DNA of 64,000 nt, taken from positions 24,957-88,956 of the forward strand of contig SBBB01000011.1 in the NCBI GenBank assembly GCA_005239895.1. Reading direction: 5' to 3'. Source of the DNA: a bacterium. Lineage in GTDB: Bacteria > Patescibacteriota > Patescibacteriia > SBBB01. Positions 53,270 to 61,314 of the stretch are shown here, piece by piece. Within the stretch, counting starts at the first letter, position 1; each line of letters opens with the position of its first letter. A model generated the notes under the pieces. It was not told the DNA's origin. It worked only from the letters and a program-made list of their open reading frames with translations, and did not search any database. A program made the translations under genes and the position numbers.

Positions 53270-53276
53270 AATTGTG

Positions 53277-53352
53277 CGCAGCGAATGGGATTCGAACCCA
53301 CGATCTCCTCCGTGACAGGGAGGCGCTTTAAACCGGGCTAAGCTACCGCTGC
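53277..53352 (-). tRNA. tRNA-Asp (anticodon GTC)
   Basis: Hand-folded cloverleaf: acceptor GCAGCGG/TCGCTGC, D-arm GCTT..AAGC, anticodon arm CCTCC-CTGTCAC-GGAGG, T-arm GTGGG-TTCGAAT-CCCAT, discriminator G. CCA is not encoded. Confidence 0.85.
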
Positions 53353-54463: not shown

Positions 54464-55366
54464 CTAAGGCTTTTTACCAGAAAGGGTTGTCCAAGACACT
54501 AAAAGACAACTAGCTATAAAAATAGAAGAGTAAGTGCCGAACAATATACCTAGCATTAAAGCCAAAACAAAGTATTTAATAGAAACCCCTCCAAAAAAGA
54601 AACTAGCCAAAAGAACTAACAAAGTAACGAAAGATGTATTCACGGATCGCATCGCAGACTGATTAACACTAACATTTATAACCTCCTCAAAACTATCTCG
54701 ATTCTTAATAGCTCCTTTATGCAGTAAATTTTCGCGAATTCTGTCAAAAATAACCACTGTATCGTAAACTGAAAAACCTAAAATTGTTAACAACGCGGTA
54801 ATAAATAAAATATTAATTTCTATGCCATAAAAATGACCTAAAACTGAAAAAACACCAATGGGCAAAATAATATCGTGCATTAAAGCTATAATTGCAATAA
54901 CTCCATACTTCCAAGATTGCGTAGGATAAGATACTTTACGAAAAGCCCAACTTAAATAAATAATAATTGCCAATAAAACAAAAAATATAGCTAATATTGA
55001 TTTATGGCGCAATTCCGCTCCAATGGTTGGACCAATAAAATCAAATCTTTTTTCTTCTACGCCTTTGAAAGCGCTCTGCAAATCAGTTAAAATCTTTTGA
55101 TGTTTTTCCTCGTCTATGGATGAGGTCCTAATAACCATACCCTTATCACCTACGCTATTTAATATCAGTTCTAAATTATAAGGCTTTAGCTTTGTTTCAA
55201 CTTCTGTAATAGAAGGTCGAGTATTGGTAAACTCTAGCTCTATTAAACTGCCACCTGTAAAATCAATACCAAATTTTAGCCCAAATACTACTACGCTAAT
55301 AACGCTTAAAGCGCATAAAAATCCCGATATACTAAACCAAATTTTGCGTCTACCAATTATATTCAT
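54464..55366 (-). CDS. secF: protein translocase subunit SecF
   Basis: 300 aa with 6 TM helices and SecF conserved segments. Immediately after secD. Confidence 0.9.
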   Translation of the reverse strand: MNIIGRRKIWFSISGFLCALSVISVVVFGLKFGIDFTGGSLIELEFTNTRPSITEVETKLKPYNLELILNSVGDKGMVIRTSSIDEEKHQKILTDLQSAFKGVEEKRFDFIGPTIGAELRHKSILAIFFVLLAIIIYLSWAFRKVSYPTQSWKYGVIAIIALMHDIILPIGVFSVLGHFYGIEINILFITALLTILGFSVYDTVVIFDRIRENLLHKGAIKNRDSFEEVINVSVNQSAMRSVNTSFVTLLVLLASFFFGGVSIKYFVLALMLGILFGTYSSIFIASCLLVSWTTLSGKKP

Positions 55367-55373
55367 ATACTAT

Positions 55374-57032
55374 TTAATTATCTTTACTTAACCATAACCA
55401 GCCTAGTTTACCATGTCTCGCGGCTAATTTCAAAAATACCTTGGTTGTTAAAACCGCTGAAAACATACTAATAACAATACCAATGGCTAGGGTTAAAGCA
55501 AAGCCCTGAACTATACTATTTCCAAACCAAAACAAAATACCAGCGGTAATTAAACTGCAAATATTCGCGTCTCTAATAGATAACCACGCTCTACCAAAAC
55601 TATCTTCAACCGCTATACCCAAATGTTTATTATTTTGCAATTCTTCTTTTAATCGCTCAAAAATTAAAATATTAGCATCTACAGCCATGCCCATAGACAG
55701 AATAAAGCCTGTAATTCCAGCTAGGGTTAAAGTAATTCCAAAAATTTTCAAAACTGCAAAAGTAATAATTCCATAAATTAATAAACTAGCCACAGCCACA
55801 GCACCGGGCAAACGATAATACAATAACATAAATAAAGCCACTAATAATAAACCAATCACGCCGGCGTTTAAACTTTTTTCTAAAGATTCCATGCCCAACG
55901 AAGATCCAATTGTATTTTGACTCACTAATTTAATTGGAACTGGCAAGGCTCCGGCATTTAATCTCTGGGCTAATAATTTAGCGCTTTCCAAATCAAACTC
56001 TCCAGATATAACCGCCTTACCATCACTAATCGCGCTTTTTACAGTTGGCGCGCTAATTATACTACCGTCTAAAACAATGGCTACGGGTTTTTCCAAATTA
56101 CGAGCTGTAATTTCTCCAAACAATTTCTTTCCCTCTTCGTTAAATTCCAAACTTACTTCCGGATATAAATTGCTTGAGCCGGAATTAAACTGAACCGATG
56201 ATTTTTTTAAATGTTGACCGTTTAATTGAGTTTTGACCCACTGTCGAGCTGGTTGTTCACCGGTTTTATATATTAAATGAAAACCAAACTCAGTTTCCAC
56301 TGGACCCACAATGCTAGAAATGCTTTGAGCCGCAACTGCGTCTGAAAACGATTTTACCATTTGATCGCCTGTAAACCAGCCTAAATCTCCACCACTTTTA
56401 TCAGCCTTGGGTTCCGTGGAATGCTCTTTAACCAACGCCACAAAATTGTCTTTAGTGGCTTTCAATTTTAATTCATTAATTTTTTTACTTGCTTCTTCTT
56501 TGGTAAAATCTTTCTCACAGCGCACAGCTCCTTTATAACAAATTAATAAATGATTGGCTTTAAATTCTTTGCCACTCTCAATGGTTTCTTGAAACTCTAA
56601 AAACGGAGTATCTCCAATTTGTTTAATAGCCGATTGCACATCTTTAAGTCCTGCCAAAGCAACCAAAACGCGCCATTTATCAGCTGATTTAACAGTTTGC
56701 ACTAAAGGCTCTTGAACTCCAAATAAATTCACGCGCCTTTCAATCACATCTCTAATACCGTCTAGAGCGCTGGCTCTATCAGCAGGACTAATATTTTTTA
56801 CATCAGCCTCATAAATCAATTCTACGCCACCTACCAAATCTAGACCTAATTTAAAAGGCATCAATATAAATGGTGTAGTTTTGGGCTGTAAATCTAAAAG
56901 AAATGTTTTTTCTAAATAATTGATAGATTTATAATAAAAAGCTGGATAATCTATAAAACCAGCTGCTAAAGTTAATAATAAAATTAAAGCAAAACTAATA
57001 CGTAATTTTGCTATGGATGTTAATTTAAGCAT
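55374..57032 (-). CDS. secD: protein translocase subunit SecD with an embedded parvulin-type PPIase domain
   Basis: SecD TM/periplasmic architecture. Residues ~170-260 contain KADKSGGDLGWFTGDQMVKSFSDAVAAQSI...GPVETEFGFHLIYK, a PpiC/parvulin signature. Confidence 0.88.
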   Translation of the reverse strand: MLKLTSIAKLRISFALILLLTLAAGFIDYPAFYYKSINYLEKTFLLDLQPKTTPFILMPFKLGLDLVGGVELIYEADVKNISPADRASALDGIRDVIERRVNLFGVQEPLVQTVKSADKWRVLVALAGLKDVQSAIKQIGDTPFLEFQETIESGKEFKANHLLICYKGAVRCEKDFTKEEASKKINELKLKATKDNFVALVKEHSTEPKADKSGGDLGWFTGDQMVKSFSDAVAAQSISSIVGPVETEFGFHLIYKTGEQPARQWVKTQLNGQHLKKSSVQFNSGSSNLYPEVSLEFNEEGKKLFGEITARNLEKPVAIVLDGSIISAPTVKSAISDGKAVISGEFDLESAKLLAQRLNAGALPVPIKLVSQNTIGSSLGMESLEKSLNAGVIGLLLVALFMLLYYRLPGAVAVASLLIYGIITFAVLKIFGITLTLAGITGFILSMGMAVDANILIFERLKEELQNNKHLGIAVEDSFGRAWLSIRDANICSLITAGILFWFGNSIVQGFALTLAIGIVISMFSAVLTTKVFLKLAARHGKLGWLWLSKDN

Positions 57033-57267: not shown

Positions 57268-57567
57268 CTAGTTTCGATCTAATTTTGCGCGCTGAAACTT
57301 TAAACGATCGAGCTGTACCAGCAATTTTATTTTTTCTTCTTTAAGTTTTTCTACTTCGGAGCGTACAACTGCTTGTCTTTCGTGTGTAAATTCACCAATG
57401 TCAAGTCTTTTTTGCCAATCAGCCCAAACCTGCTGAATCTCGGCATCTATTTTTTCAACCTGTGTATCCAAAACAGAAATGTCTCGATCTAAAATAAGAC
57501 GATCTGTTGAAATAACCGGCTCTGGTTCTGTTATTCCGACCTCTGATCTTTCTGATCCTTCTCTCAT
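57268..57567 (-). CDS. coiled-coil hypothetical protein (99 aa)
   Basis: Heptad-rich ORF, somewhat GC-richer than the flanks. No assignment. Confidence 0.4.
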   Translation of the reverse strand: MREGSERSEVGITEPEPVISTDRLILDRDISVLDTQVEKIDAEIQQVWADWQKRLDIGEFTHERQAVVRSEVEKLKEEKIKLLVQLDRLKFQRAKLDRN

Positions 57568-57790: not shown

Positions 57791-59125
57791 ATGAATATTT
57801 TTACGTCTTCGTTAGTTTTATTTGTAACCCTGTCTCTGGCTTTACCAAGTGCAGCGTTTTCTGCGGAAGTTGCTGCAACCACTACAAAACCAGTTATAAA
57901 AAAAGGATTTTGCGTTGATATTTTAAAGCAACAAACAGTAATAAATAAAGAAATAAAAGATCAACAATCTAATGAAACGAACAAAATCAAAAAAACAAAT
58001 AATTTTTTCAAACAACAAACTAGGAACCAAAAAAATATTCTAAACACGCTAAAAACTGATACAAATAAATTATTTGCAAGACTAGAATCTCGGGCTAGCA
58101 CTGAAGTCCATAAAAACGCCTTAAAGCAAAGCAAAGATAATACTATAAAAATGATTGAGGAAAGGATAGTATCTGTTACGACCAGCGCTAAAGAACTTGA
58201 AGATACAGTGCAAAAGTTACTTGATGATCGAAAACCAGTGTTTGATAATGCTTTGAATAATTATAAAACAAATTTACAAAACAATGCTAAAACAGCTGAA
58301 ACCCAGTGTGCCAATAAAGCTGATGAAGCAAAAACCAAAACAGATTTCACGGCTGTAAACAAAAAATACAAAACAAGTTTCACTTCAGATATGACTACTT
58401 TGGGGAATCTGGATAATTTAATTAAAATAACTGAAAAAACACATAAAATAAAAACAACTGATCAAATTCAAGAATACAAAAATGCTGTTGAAAACTATAA
58501 AATCAATCCCTCAAATCCAACCCTGTCATCCGACGGGGCACGCACCACACCAACACCAACACCAACGCCAATCCCGACACCTACTCCTACTCCGGTTTCC
58601 ACCCCTACTCCAACCCCAACCCCAGTTCCTACTCCTACACCCACACCAACTCCTACACCAGTGCCAACCACCACGCCCACACCAACTCCGACGTCCACAC
58701 CCGTTCCAACCCCCACACCCACGCCTATACCAACGCCAATAACTCAACCAGAAATAGATCTTGAGCTACAATCCGTTTCTGTATCACCTGAGGGTAGCGC
58801 ATATTACATCAGCTTATATTTATGTGTTAAGGGTTCCAAAAGCATAAATGATATTAAAGCAACTAACACAAATATAACTGCCTTACCAATAGATTATCTT
58901 ACTTATACTACAGACAGCGTGCCCCACAAAACAAAGTTGTCGGGCGTTTCTTATCTTGATACCCTAAAAAGTGGAGGCTGTAGTAATATGGGAACCATGA
59001 TGTATAATAGTGATGCTATAACGCGTTTCAAGAATACCAAAAAAATAACAGTTACACTCGATGAAGCAAATCAAATCCCAGAAACTAATGAAAATAATAA
59101 TAGTAAAACCTTTATAGGTAATTAA
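57791..59125 (+). CDS. secreted surface protein with (Thr-Pro)n linker and C-terminal CARDB-like domain
   Basis: Signal peptide ([25 protein letters not shown]), a Lys-rich helical region, an ~65-aa PTPTPTP linker (58545-58740), and a C-terminal ...[15 protein letters not shown] ending. Confidence 0.65.
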
Positions 59126-60397: not shown

Positions 60398-60469
60398 AAT
60401 TTGAAAAATTTAGTTACACATTACCCAATATATTACGGAATTTAATTAATTCTGTCTAGGATAGCAATA

Positions 60470-60512
60470 CTTGGAAGTCGGACTTCCACTTGGAAGTCCG
60501 ACTTCCAAGTCA
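60470..60512. repeat. tandem pair of 15-nt palindromes (GGAAGTCGGACTTCC, GGAAGTCCGACTTCC) each preceded by ACTT
   Basis: Read directly from the sequence between the murA start and the GC-rich rRNA-like segment. Confidence 0.7.
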
Positions 60513-60574
60513 ACCACATTTAAAACAAAAGCCAGTAAAGTACTTTTGTTGTTTAAAAGTAATACTGGCTCATA

Positions 60575-61105
60575 AATAATGAATTGGTGGGGGCGGTGGT
60601 TTACTGTTCTTGCAAGCGTTGTTGACAACGATCGTCACGACAGCGCTAAACCGCCCCCATGTGCGAGAAGACATAACCTTTGCTCGCACCACAATGTAAT
60701 AATGAAATGGGGTGGATGGGTTTTGCTTTGTTATCAAGCGTGTGTTGGTGACGTGTTTTGGGGAACCACGGCAACACTAAACCCATCCTGCACGACTCAG
60801 TCAAATGTAAAACAGGTGTTCGCTCGCCACTAATAGCCTCACTTGACTGATTTTTCGTACCCCCAAAATAATCGGGACGGGGTGGTTTTGGGCCAGGTTT
60901 GTTACTGATGACTAGCACCAGAAACACGGACCTGAAACCACCCCTGTGCAATGCAATCCACGCGCAGCCTTCTACACGGATCAACCCGATGCCTATGACT
61001 GGGTTGTATGGCCACGCTTGCAATAATCGCGCATTGCACCCCTTCGATAAAGAAGCGATCTCTCCCAACCGCTTAGGGCACTCTAGAGAGAATGCTGTTT
61101 TTTTT
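60575..61105 (-). rRNA. 23S rRNA 5'-domain(I)-like fragment; truncated pseudogene or rRNA-derived structured RNA
   Basis: ORF-less, conspicuously GC-rich ~0.5 kb. The minus-strand reading contains UUAGUGGCGAGCGAAC, GGGGUGGUUUCAGG, UUGAUCCG and AAGAACAGUAAACC in the order of conserved LSU domain I elements. It ends in a GGGGGCGGU/ACCGCCCCC hairpin. No further rRNA sequence follows. Based on recall of LSU consensus, not on a search. Confidence 0.4.
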
Positions 61106-61314
61106 GCGAAAATCACTCAAAACGCAAAAAAACAAGAGATCACCTTAACACAACGAAGCTTTTTTCTTTCTATTTCCACTACTAACGCCACGTTGTGTTC
61201 TCTATCGTAAAAATCTCATCCTAAAAACATGATAATACATCATAACATATAGAATATTTTTTGTCAACCCCCACAATTTGTTCCCAAACCTAATCAGTGT
61301 TATAATAATAATAT

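What the first reader, a model, noticed from the sequence alone, without database searches (positions are those of the whole stretch)
55374..57032. SecD with an inserted parvulin-type peptidyl-prolyl isomerase domain
Within the first periplasmic domain of SecD there is a ~90-aa segment (KADKSGGDLGWFTGDQMVKSFSDAVAAQSI...GPVETEFGFHLIYK) carrying the conserved parvulin/PpiC signature. This would be a fusion of the translocon motor with a folding catalyst. The organism may lack dedicated periplasmic PPIases such as SurA or PrsA, and this could compensate.
Basis: partly seen in the sequence, partly recalled or inferred. Interest (0 to 1): 0.55.

Follow-up and report, generated by a model that had tools for sequence, protein, structure and literature searches.

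The report
SecD translocon motor with built-in prolyl isomerase
The protein-export motor subunit SecD of this ultra-small (Patescibacteria-type) bacterium really does carry a complete, apparently active parvulin prolyl-isomerase domain spliced into its outward-facing arm; this turns out to be a widespread but apparently undescribed feature of that bacterial radiation, and this gene is a rare stripped-down version of it.

Summary
Observation confirmed. ORF 55374-57032 (-) is a 552-aa SecD, with secF 8 nt downstream. A parvulin (PpiC-type) domain lies at residues ~154-256 (Pfam Rotamase_3 E=1e-19, Rotamase E=3e-17), exactly between the Pfam P1-base N-terminal unit (94-149) and the P1 head (264-365).

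The Pin1-equivalent catalytic and pocket residues (H161, E207, L217, M225, F229, F249, H252) are present. They are 89-100% conserved in 120 relatives, and so is the proton-relay Asp (D452).

The fusion is not unique. It is typical of many Patescibacteria SecDs, which databases annotate simply as "SecD". No paper describing it turned up.

The family has three architectures:
- a circularly permuted single parvulin that usually keeps both catalytic His;
- that permuted domain, now without its His residues, with a second normal parvulin nested inside it (the commonest form among close relatives);
- the window's form (plus one sister cluster), which keeps only the inner, catalytic domain.

Most likely function: a folding catalyst or chaperone fixed at the Sec exit on the proton-driven P1 arm. 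This would be a covalent version of SurA-SecDF, PpiD-SecYEG, PrsA and the Mycoplasma "dome" complex.

The idea that it compensates for missing stand-alone PPIases could not be tested.

The parts
55374..57032 (-). secD, 552 aa, complete ORF including the stop codon
   Evidence: ORF. TIGR01129 secD 356 bits, above the 244 cut-off; 3AQP/5YHF SecDF E=9e-72. Foldseek top hits are SecDF 5YHF, 5XAN and 3AQP.
56949..57017 (-). TM1 (residues ~6-28). It places everything up to TM2 on the outer face of the membrane.
   Evidence: DSSP helix 6-28 in the AF2 model, with hydrophobic sequence LRISFALILLLTLAAGFI. Topology is by homology to SecDF (PMC5974789).
56577..56855 (-). P1-base N-terminal part (residues 60-152). 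It aligns to T. thermophilus SecDF residues 33-120.
   Evidence: PF21760 SecD_1st at 94-149. HMMER alignment to 3AQP.
56265..56573 (-). Inserted parvulin (PpiC-type) PPIase domain, residues 154-256, with normal (non-permuted) topology. Catalytic/pocket residues are H161, E207, L217, M225, F229, F249 and H252. An extra beta1-alpha1 loop carries the invariant pair C165 and C172.
   Evidence: Rotamase_3 E=1.1e-19 and Rotamase E=3.3e-17. SurA, PrsA, Pin1 and Par10 chains at E=1e-14 to 1e-7. BLASTP to Pin1 for the residue mapping; conservation in 120 relatives; pLDDT 92-97 across the domain.
55938..56243 (-). P1 head subdomain (residues 264-365), the precursor-binding swinging arm of SecDF
   Evidence: PF22599 E=2.3e-27; aligns to 3AQP residues 178 onward. 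Function from PMC5974789.
55428..55931 (-). TM2-TM6 bundle (residues 368-535), including D452, the equivalent of T. thermophilus D340 (essential TM4 Asp of the proton path)
   Evidence: PF02355; alignment, with residue count giving Tt D340 = query D452. D in 120/120.
54464..55366 (-). secF, 300 aa, 8 nt downstream of secD (probable operon). It keeps D202 and R240, the equivalents of Tt D637 and R671.
   Evidence: PF02355 E=4e-53 and Sec_GG. TIGR00966 279 bits, above the 160 cut-off; motif positions; secF lies downstream of secD in 77 of 81 related loci.

Best explanation
This is a genuine SecD subunit of the proton-driven SecDF export motor. A complete parvulin-type peptidyl-prolyl isomerase domain is spliced into it at the junction between the P1 base and the P1 head, on the outer face of the cytoplasmic membrane. 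Shown: the domain architecture, the intact catalytic and pocket residues, the intact proton-relay residues in SecD and SecF, and the family-wide conservation. Inferred: polypeptides leaving SecYEG are captured by the P1-head cavity as in canonical SecDF. The adjacent parvulin domain then binds them and catalyses cis/trans isomerisation of Xaa-Pro bonds (and/or acts as a holdase), so that folding help is physically fixed at the translocon exit and moves with the proton-powered P1 arm. In evolutionary terms the gene is the minimal end-state of a Patescibacteria-wide series. The series runs from a circularly permuted single parvulin in SecD, to a second normal parvulin nested inside it while the outer one loses its catalytic histidines, to (in this lineage) loss of the outer domain so that only the catalytic inner domain remains.
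For: Architecture and scores.

Insertion point: query 60-152 matches Tt SecDF 33-120 and query 291-544 matches Tt 178-432.

AF2 model: mean pLDDT 89.5, parvulin region 92-97. Two ~20-residue strands (145-164 and 250-271) run without a break from SecD into parvulin beta1 and from parvulin beta4 back into SecD. Foldseek returns SecDF structures as top hits.

Catalytic mapping to Pin1: H59/C113/L122/M130/F134/S154/H157 correspond to H161/E207/L217/M225/F229/F249/H252. Conservation in 120 relatives is H161 119/120, E207 107 E plus 7 D, L217/F229/F249/H252 120/120, M225 117/120 and SecD D452 120/120.

Family context: all top-120 homologues carry Rotamase plus SecD domains. Of these, 117 are the two-domain form and 2 are the window type. 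Among 80 GTDB genome loci, 38 are two-domain, about 40 are single permuted and 1 has none. Among the 150 best 50%-identity representatives, 68 carry at least one parvulin.

Permutation: moving the C-terminal 'ASHILI' strand to the front extends the PF00639 match to profile position 1 and adds 4.9-7.2 bits in three of three inserts tested.

Nesting: in the AF2 model of P0029, strands 253-275 and 361-384 are continuous across the domain boundaries.

Histidines: 43 of 60 single permuted domains keep both His by motif scan, against 2 of 181 outer domains of two-domain forms.

Functional precedent: SurA binds the SecYEG-SecDF-YidC holotranslocon, and AlphaFold places SurA's two parvulin domains on the SecDF P1 head (PMC9987972). 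PrsA-like parvulin lipoproteins form a dome over SecDF-SecYEG in Mycoplasma pneumoniae, with substrate density touching the active parvulin domain (bioRxiv 10.1101/2025.04.25.650208; 10.1101/2024.09.05.611430). PpiD/YfgM associate with SecYEG (PMC9643414).
Against: - No enzymatic or genetic data exist for any member.
- The Cys113-equivalent is Glu. Asp is known to work in Pin1 and other parvulins, but Glu is untested.
- Some parvulin folds with reasonable sequence conservation are inactive (my recollection: the PpiD parvulin and SurA P1).
- I could not read model coordinates. The orientation of the active site relative to the P1-head cavity, the pairing of the two long strands and the docking of the 'VSRILI' strand are therefore inferred from DSSP strings only.
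- The direction of evolution rests on an unbootstrapped NJ tree with short deep branches.
- The His counts come from regular-expression motif scans and miss domains with long linkers.
Confidence: 0.65

Rival explanations
1. The parvulin fold is kept as a non-catalytic module. It would serve as an extra substrate-binding or holdase surface, or as a structural spacer that enlarges or re-positions the P1 head. It would not work as a prolyl isomerase.
For: In the sister two-domain proteins, the outer parvulin has lost both catalytic histidines yet is retained, so non-catalytic parvulin folds are clearly useful in this position. The Cys113-equivalent is Glu rather than Cys or Asp. From my own knowledge, the PpiD parvulin domain and SurA P1 lack PPIase activity.
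Against: The domain kept in this gene is exactly the one whose catalytic dyad and pocket are 98-100% conserved. In single-domain relatives the catalytic His pair is also mostly kept, whereas it decays only when a second intact domain is present. That pattern is expected if one active site per SecD is under selection.
Confidence: 0.22
2. The isomerase acts in cis or on a dedicated partner rather than on general secretory clients. It might isomerise a proline in the SecD P1 hinge to gate the F/I-form swing. Alternatively it might serve one abundant client such as a pilin, an S-layer protein or the Pro/Thr-rich surface protein encoded next door.
For: The insertion sits at the base-to-head crossover, where the head swings (PMC5974789). 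A secreted protein with a long (TPTP)n linker is encoded 760 nt upstream on the opposite strand.
Against: The neighbouring gene and the 99-aa upstream ORF are not conserved beside secD in relatives (for the 99-aa ORF). The fusion is conserved across very diverse lineages with different neighbours. There is no conserved proline-rich hinge motif that I could point to.
Confidence: 0.08
3. The fusion is an artefact: a mis-assembled or mis-called ORF joining a PPIase gene and secD.
For: None beyond the general possibility in metagenome assemblies.
Against: The reading frame is uninterrupted, with SecD sequence on both sides of the insert. The identical protein is on an independent assembly. Hundreds of independent assemblies and 79 of 80 GTDB loci show an insert at the same position.
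Confidence: 0.01

Closest known systems
Canonical SecDF (Thermus thermophilus 3AQP/5YHF; Deinococcus radiodurans 5XAM/5XAN/5XAP)
   Same: Same TM bundle, P1 base and P1 head. The essential TM4 Asp (D452 = Tt D340) and SecF D202/R240 (= Tt D637/R671) are kept, and the gene pair is secD-secF.
   Different: About 103 extra residues forming a parvulin domain between the P1 base and the P1 head. None of the solved SecDF structures has any insert there (Tt residues 121-177 face query residues 153-290).
Patescibacteria two-parvulin SecD (e.g. P0029, P0003, GW2011 Parcubacteria P0083; ~685 aa)
   Same: Closest relatives (53-62% identity). The inner parvulin domain is the same, with the NHLLICY...RC...GGDLGWF...FGYHLIYK motifs and the CX6C pair.
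   Different: They also carry an outer, circularly permuted parvulin without catalytic His. It is split into a long N-terminal piece and a C-terminal 'VSRILI' strand, and the window protein lacks both pieces cleanly.
Patescibacteria single, circularly permuted parvulin SecD (Kerfeld-, Buchanan-, Magasanik-, Kuenenbacteria; ~555-595 aa)
   Same: One parvulin domain at the same site in P1. Both catalytic histidines are usually kept.
   Different: Opposite chain topology. They enter at helix alpha1 and leave after beta1 (a permuted domain), whereas the window protein enters at beta1 and leaves after beta4. Scaffold identity to the window protein is lower, at 42-50%.
PrsA (Bacillus subtilis 4WO7/1ZK6) and SurA (1M5Y)
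   Same: Extracytoplasmic parvulin domain of the non-phospho-specific type, with Phe at the Pin1 S154 position and an acidic residue at the C113 position. The presumed role is folding of exported proteins.
   Different: No NC chaperone (SurA_N / trigger-factor-like) domain and no lipobox. The anchor is SecD itself. NCBIfam PrsA and SurA models match only the parvulin stretch, far below their cut-offs (44 vs 361 bits; 40 vs 394 bits).
SurA-holotranslocon and PpiD/YfgM-SecYEG complexes of E. coli; Mdp444/436/489 'dome' on SecDF-SecYEG of Mycoplasma pneumoniae
   Same: A parvulin-containing factor positioned at the Sec exit, in contact with or next to the SecDF P1 head (PMC9987972; PMC9643414; bioRxiv 10.1101/2025.04.25.650208).
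   Different: Those are non-covalent assemblies of separate proteins. Here the parvulin is part of the SecD polypeptide, at 1:1 stoichiometry, and is mechanically tied to the moving P1 domain.

Membership tests
SecD (protein translocase subunit, RND superfamily) | Full-length match to the curated SecD model above its cut-off | tested here: met
   TIGR01129 scores 356.1 bits against a cut-off of 244.4 and covers 62-534. PF21760, PF22599 and PF02355 are all present.
SecD (protein translocase subunit, RND superfamily) | Essential TM4 aspartate of the proton path (Tt D340), and a partner SecF with the TM10 Asp and TM11 Arg | tested here: met
   D452 aligns with Tt D340 and is invariant in 120 relatives. 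SecF D202 and R240 lie in the SVYDTV and NQSAMRS motifs that match Tt D637 and R671. The residue roles come from my knowledge of Tsukazaki 2011 and from 'esAspIV/esArgXI' in PMC5974789.
SecD (protein translocase subunit, RND superfamily) | secF adjacent to or fused with secD | tested here: met
   secF at 54464-55366 lies 8 nt downstream on the same strand.
SecD (protein translocase subunit, RND superfamily) | PMF-dependent stimulation of protein export | not testable with these tools
   Needs biochemistry or genetics.
Parvulin-type PPIase (PpiC/Rotamase, PF00639/PF13616) | Domain model match above the gathering score, covering the whole fold | tested here: met
   PF00639 profile positions 1-95 of 97, 63.7 bits against 21.7. 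PF13616 71.5 bits against 22.5. The AF2 secondary structure is beta-alpha3-beta-alpha-beta2, as in parvulins.
Parvulin-type PPIase (PpiC/Rotamase, PF00639/PF13616) | Catalytic His pair, Cys/Asp-position residue and hydrophobic proline pocket (Pin1 H59, C113, L122, M130, F134, H157) | tested here: met
Conservation is 89-100%. Caveat: the C113 position holds Glu rather than Cys or Asp.
Parvulin-type PPIase (PpiC/Rotamase, PF00639/PF13616) | Measured cis/trans isomerase activity | not testable with these tools
   Requires an enzyme assay.
PrsA / SurA / PpiD chaperone-PPIases | N- and C-terminal chaperone module (SurA_N / trigger-factor-like) flanking the parvulin domain | tested here: not met
   No SurA_N-type Pfam hit. 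The parvulin is flanked directly by SecD P1 strands. The PrsA and SurA NCBIfam models match only residues ~156-265, far below their cut-offs.
PrsA / SurA / PpiD chaperone-PPIases | Own membrane anchor (lipobox in PrsA, N-terminal TM in PpiD) or a soluble periplasmic protein (SurA) | tested here: not met
   The domain is internal to SecD, between TM1 and TM2.
Patescibacteria parvulin-bearing SecD (unnamed family defined here) | Parvulin domain(s) inserted between the LEF(K/Q)E strand of the P1 base and the P1 head | tested here: met
   The insert is at the same site in the query, the top-120 homologues and 79 of 80 GTDB loci.
Patescibacteria parvulin-bearing SecD (unnamed family defined here) | Outer circularly permuted parvulin (alpha1...beta4 followed by a C-terminal beta1 strand) | tested here: not met
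   Both pieces are absent from the query and from P0002. The query is therefore a variant within the family, not the typical form.

The most novel reading that the evidence does not exclude
The parvulin domain is not just tethered near the exit but is mechanically coupled to the proton-driven swing of P1 through the rigid two-strand connector. SecDF in these monoderm, genome-reduced bacteria would then work as a 'powered foldase': each PMF cycle pulls a segment out of SecYEG and presents it to, then strips it from, the isomerase site. This would substitute for ATP-less extracytoplasmic chaperone systems. In parallel, the family would be a natural, still-living series of the permutation-by-duplication pathway (permuted single, then nested double, then unpermuted single) inside a membrane machine.
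Probability: 0.2. Interest if true: 0.8.

Novelty: new variant of a known kind. Interest (0 to 1): 0.58.

Why it matters
How proteins leaving SecYEG are handed to folding factors is an open question. Recent work could only infer transient contacts: SurA parvulin domains on the SecDF P1 head, PpiD at the lateral gate, and the Mycoplasma dome. A natural covalent SecD-parvulin fusion, conserved across a large part of the Patescibacteria, argues that the P1-head/parvulin partnership is functionally important. It also offers a stable 1:1 object for structural and biochemical study of translocation-coupled folding.

The fusion suggests how bacteria with ~1-Mb genomes and no outer membrane economise on envelope proteostasis.

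The three architectures are a clean natural example of domain circular permutation and nesting. Catalytic residues move from the outer to the inner copy, which is of interest for protein evolution and design.

Practically, genome annotations call all of these simply 'SecD'. Pathway surveys may therefore mis-score PrsA/PPIase presence in CPR genomes.

Tried and rejected
- **Genome-wide census of stand-alone PPIases:** not possible, because only the 64-kb window and +/-4-10 kb flanks of related loci can be read. A parvulin HMM search of 688 kb of flanks also found nothing.
- **Literature:** searches for any description of a SecD-PPIase fusion found none. That is an absence in the searchable open-access corpus only.
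- **Tsukazaki 2011 Nature paper:** not held. I used the 2018 review instead.
- **Foldseek of the full model:** gave SecDF and then RND pumps. Parvulin structures were swamped, so the parvulin assignment rests on sequence searches.
- **Model coordinates:** I could not measure the C165-C172 distance, the active-site orientation or the strand pairing.
- **First regex-based topology classifier:** too crude. It was replaced by an HMM-start criterion and a relaxed motif scan, which still misses domains with long linkers.
- **NJ scaffold tree:** has no support values and short deep branches. I use it only as a hint for secondary loss.
- **Own genome of the window:** not among the best 80 GTDB loci (highest best-segment identity 55%), and no source name exists for the exact protein. 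The organism is assigned to Patescibacteria only by its SecD relatives and low GC.
- **Rfam on the 60.3-61.4 kb gap:** gave only chance miRNA-model hits to a palindrome.
Full report
**1. Observation**

The ORF at 55374..57032 on the minus strand is real. It starts with ATG and encodes 552 aa. A 300-aa ORF follows 8 nt downstream on the same strand.

Pfam places five units along the 552-aa protein:

| Unit | Residues | Score |
|---|---|---|
| SecD_1st (N-terminal part of P1) | 94-149 | E=2.8e-12 |
| Rotamase_3 | 154-255 | E=1.1e-19, 71.5 bits (cut-off 22.5) |
| Rotamase | 161-256 | E=3.3e-17, profile positions 1-95 of 97 |
| SecDF_P1_head | 264-365 | E=2.3e-27 |
| SecD_SecF_C | 368-535 | E=4.8e-15 |

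NCBIfam calls the protein SecD (TIGR01129, 356 bits against a cut-off of 244). It calls the downstream protein SecF (TIGR00966, 279 bits against 160). An identical protein lies on an independently assembled Logan contig, and every close homologue has an insert at the same place. This is therefore not an assembly or gene-calling artefact.

**2. Anatomy**

- Against solved structures, residues 60-152 align with T. thermophilus SecDF residues 33-120, and residues 291-544 align with residues 178-432.
- The extra ~100 residues therefore sit just after the last N-terminal P1-base strand, where the chain crosses into the P1 head.
- An AlphaFold2 model built on 120 homologues is confident: mean pLDDT is 89.5, and 92-97 over the insert.
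- Helix 6-28 is TM1. The insert has the parvulin order of secondary-structure elements.
- Two unusually long strands (145-164 and 250-271) run without a break from SecD into parvulin beta1, and from parvulin beta4 back into SecD.
- I read this as a two-stranded connector that holds the parvulin domain on the P1 domain. That is an inference from the DSSP string, because model coordinates could not be inspected.
- Foldseek returns the SecDF crystal structures (5YHF, 5XAN, 5XAP, 3AQP) as the top hits.

**3. Is the isomerase site intact?**

A BLASTP alignment to human Pin1 gives 35% identity and E=5e-14.

| Pin1 residue | Window residue | State in 120 relatives |
|---|---|---|
| H59 | H161 | H in 119 |
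| C113 | E207 | E in 107, D in 7, G in 6 |
| L122 | L217 | 120/120 |
| M130 | M225 | M in 117 |
| F134 | F229 | 120/120 |
| S154 | F249 | 120/120 |
| H157 | H252 | 120/120 |

- Phe at the S154 position and an acidic residue at the C113 position are the pattern of non-phospho-specific parvulins such as Par10 and PrsA.
- Pin1 C113D is reported to be active (cited in bioRxiv 10.1101/2024.09.05.611430). Glu at that position is untested.
- The beta1-alpha1 loop is longer than in PrsA or Par10. It carries two cysteines, C165 and C172 (CX6C), that are invariant in all 120 sequences. For an extracytoplasmic domain this suggests a disulfide staple or a redox feature.

The motor side also looks functional. 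SecD D452 aligns with the essential TM4 Asp (Tt D340) and is invariant. SecF D202 and R240 occupy the positions of Tt D637 and R671 (roles per PMC5974789, and my knowledge of Tsukazaki 2011).

**4. Family context**

This changes the picture. Where they are named, they are 'SecD' of Patescibacteria, Parcubacteria, Falkowbacteria or Uhrbacteria. Most are ~685 aa and have two Rotamase stretches, and one (P0060) has three.

- **GTDB species genomes.** A scan returned 80 SecD loci from Magasanik-, Buchanan-, Kerfeld-, Falkow-, Kuenen-, Veblen- and Uhrbacteria and unnamed Patescibacteria. HMM counting classified 38 as two-domain, about 40 as single-domain and 1 as having none.
- **50%-identity representatives.** Of the 150 most similar, 68 carry at least one parvulin and 82 carry none. 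The insert-less ones include a cluster named Azambacteria/Patescibacteria.

So the insertion is common in this SecD clade but not universal.

**5. Three architectures**

Alignment of the insert region shows the following.

- **(a) Single, circularly permuted.** This form is seen in Kerfeldbacteria L012, Buchananbacteria L004 and L039, among others. The chain enters at helix alpha1 (LTxxEK..YNxxAK..ADFAxLA..SED), continues through GGDLGF, MVxEF and FGYHIIKK, and only then supplies an 'E-V-x-A-S-H-I-L-I' strand before the P1 head. That strand is the parvulin beta1 strand placed at the C-terminal end.
  - Test: moving the strand to the front in silico extends the Pfam Rotamase match from profile start 7-12 to start 1. 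It adds 7.2, 5.3 and 4.9 bits in L039, L012 and L004, and the Rotamase_3 start moves from 31-32 to 14-16.
- **(b) Nested two-domain.** The same permuted domain is present, but a complete parvulin of normal topology is inserted at its beta4-to-beta1 junction.
  - The AF2 model of P0029 (pLDDT 84) has continuous strands 253-275 (outer beta4 into inner beta1) and 361-384 (inner beta4 into 'VSRILI'). This is consistent with nesting.
- **(c) Inner domain only.** The window protein and its sister cluster P0002 keep only the inner domain. Both pieces of the outer domain are cleanly absent.

Motif scans show a division of labour. In 43 of 60 single permuted domains both catalytic His are kept, and several of the misses are long-linker cases. 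Only 2 of 181 outer domains of two-domain forms keep both; these typically read His2 to Asn and His1 to Arg.

By the HMM-start criterion, window-type proteins number 2 of the top 120 and 0 of the 80 GTDB loci. Fifteen longer representatives (510-1119 aa) also show a single normally ordered parvulin, but they were not characterised further.

An NJ tree of the insert-free scaffold places the window protein and P0002 as sisters within the part of the tree rich in two-domain forms. Single permuted forms dominate the other clades. This fits secondary loss of the outer domain, but the tree has no support values.

**6. Context in the window**

- secF follows secD here and in 77 of 81 related loci.
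- The 99-aa ORF upstream of secD has no Pfam match and no homologue beside secD in relatives.
- No other parvulin, FKBP or cyclophilin is detectable in the six-frame translation of the 64-kb window.
- No stand-alone parvulin lies in the 688 kb of fetched flanks.
- These are small samples, so the 'compensation for missing SurA/PrsA' idea remains untested.
- One paper states that all CPR classes have members annotated with PrsA (PMC9166423). Whether those calls are the SecD insert is unknown.
- Patescibacteria are proposed to lack an outer membrane (PMC12102498). The compartment is therefore the membrane-wall interface rather than a true periplasm.

**7. Mechanism**

Established for SecDF:
- The TM bundle conducts protons.
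- The P1-head cavity contacts emerging precursors.
- The head swings between the Super-F, F and I forms to pull chains out of SecYEG (PMC5974789).

Established or proposed for parvulin factors at the translocon:
- SurA binds the SecYEG-SecDF-YidC holotranslocon. All AlphaFold models place SurA's two parvulin domains on the SecDF P1 head in the I form (PMC9987972).
- PpiD/YfgM bind SecYEG (PMC9643414).
- In Mycoplasma pneumoniae, PrsA-like parvulin lipoproteins form a dome over SecDF-SecYEG. Substrate density there contacts the one catalytically intact parvulin domain (10.1101/2025.04.25.650208; 10.1101/2024.09.05.611430).

Inference for this gene: the parvulin domain, fixed next to the P1 head, receives the segment that the head has just pulled out. 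It then catalyses prolyl isomerisation and/or shields the segment, which makes the chaperone-recruitment step obsolete. I put this at ~0.65.

Rivals:
- A non-catalytic holdase or spacer role, ~0.22.
- A self-regulatory or single-client role, ~0.08.
- An artefact, ~0.01.

**8. Comparison and novelty**

- The protein is a member of SecD (all testable defining features met).
- It contains a bona fide parvulin domain (fold and catalytic residues met; activity not testable).
- It is not a PrsA/SurA/PpiD family member. It has no NC chaperone module and no anchor of its own, and the family models match only the parvulin stretch far below cut-off.
- It works like a covalent version of the SurA-SecDF, PpiD-Sec or Mdp-SecDF assemblies.
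- The architecture is visible in databases, where it is annotated simply as SecD. I found no paper that describes it.
- I rate it a new variant of a known kind. The specific gene is a rare reduced member of a large, undescribed subfamily.

**9. Verdict**

Interest is 0.58. The parts are ordinary. However, the fusion is a conserved natural experiment that bears directly on a current question, namely how SecDF hands substrates to folding factors. The permuted, nested and reduced series is also an attractive case of domain evolution.

Noticed in passing
window 60560-61260, minus strand (within the gene-free gap 60398-61314): A ~700-nt stretch without a credible ORF and with higher GC than its surroundings. 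It folds at -248 kcal/mol with z = -7.3 against shuffles on the minus strand, versus z = -2.9 on the plus strand. It contains several long hairpins with similar GGGG(U/C)GGUUU...AAACC(A/G)CCCC bases. There is no Rfam family at gathering or at E<=1, apart from chance miRNA-model hits to a 48-nt palindrome at 60462-60515. It is a candidate large structured non-coding RNA.
   Followed up: partly
window 56517-56540 (codons of C165 and C172 in secD): The inner parvulin domain has a CX6C pair in an enlarged beta1-alpha1 loop, the position of Pin1's phosphate-binding loop. The pair is invariant in 120/120 relatives and is not conserved in the aligned permuted single-domain examples. It may be a disulfide staple or a redox switch in an extracytoplasmic PPIase.
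   Followed up: partly
window 57791-59125, plus strand: A 444-aa predicted secreted protein has an N-terminal signal-like segment, a Lys/Asn-rich helical half and a ~90-residue (TPTP)n Pro/Thr linker. It is encoded divergently upstream of secD. As a proline-rich exported protein it is a conceivable PPIase client, but no link was tested.
   Followed up: no
window 57268-57567, minus strand: A 99-aa charged, coiled-coil-like ORF lies directly upstream of secD. It has no Pfam match and no homologue next to secD in 80 related loci. It is an orphan gene, or possibly not a gene.
   Followed up: partly
loci L005, L013, L015, L016, L020, L023, L024, L031, L068, L079 and others: Many GTDB record titles for contigs that encode clearly Patescibacteria-type parvulin-SecD read 'uncultured Gammaproteobacteria bacterium' (TPA binchicken/SRP assemblies). 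Others read Lysobacteraceae, Binatia, Bdellovibrionales or Bathyarchaeia. These look like placeholder or wrong taxonomic labels, not evidence that the fusion occurs in those groups.
   Followed up: no
proteins P0060 (793 aa) and P0129, P0151, P0153, P0164 (1015-1075 aa): Further architectures exist. P0060 has a third parvulin-like stretch (Rotamase_2, residues 93-170) ahead of the Sec_GG motif. Several ~1000-aa relatives, long enough to be SecD-SecF fusions, also carry one or two parvulin domains.
   Followed up: no
window 1-64000: Nearly all ORFs of 100 aa or more are on the minus strand, and GC skew is negative in every 2-kb bin. Together with ~33% GC this indicates a long co-oriented replichore segment of a small, AT-rich genome. 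The only tRNA is tRNA-Asp at 53276-53352.
   Followed up: no
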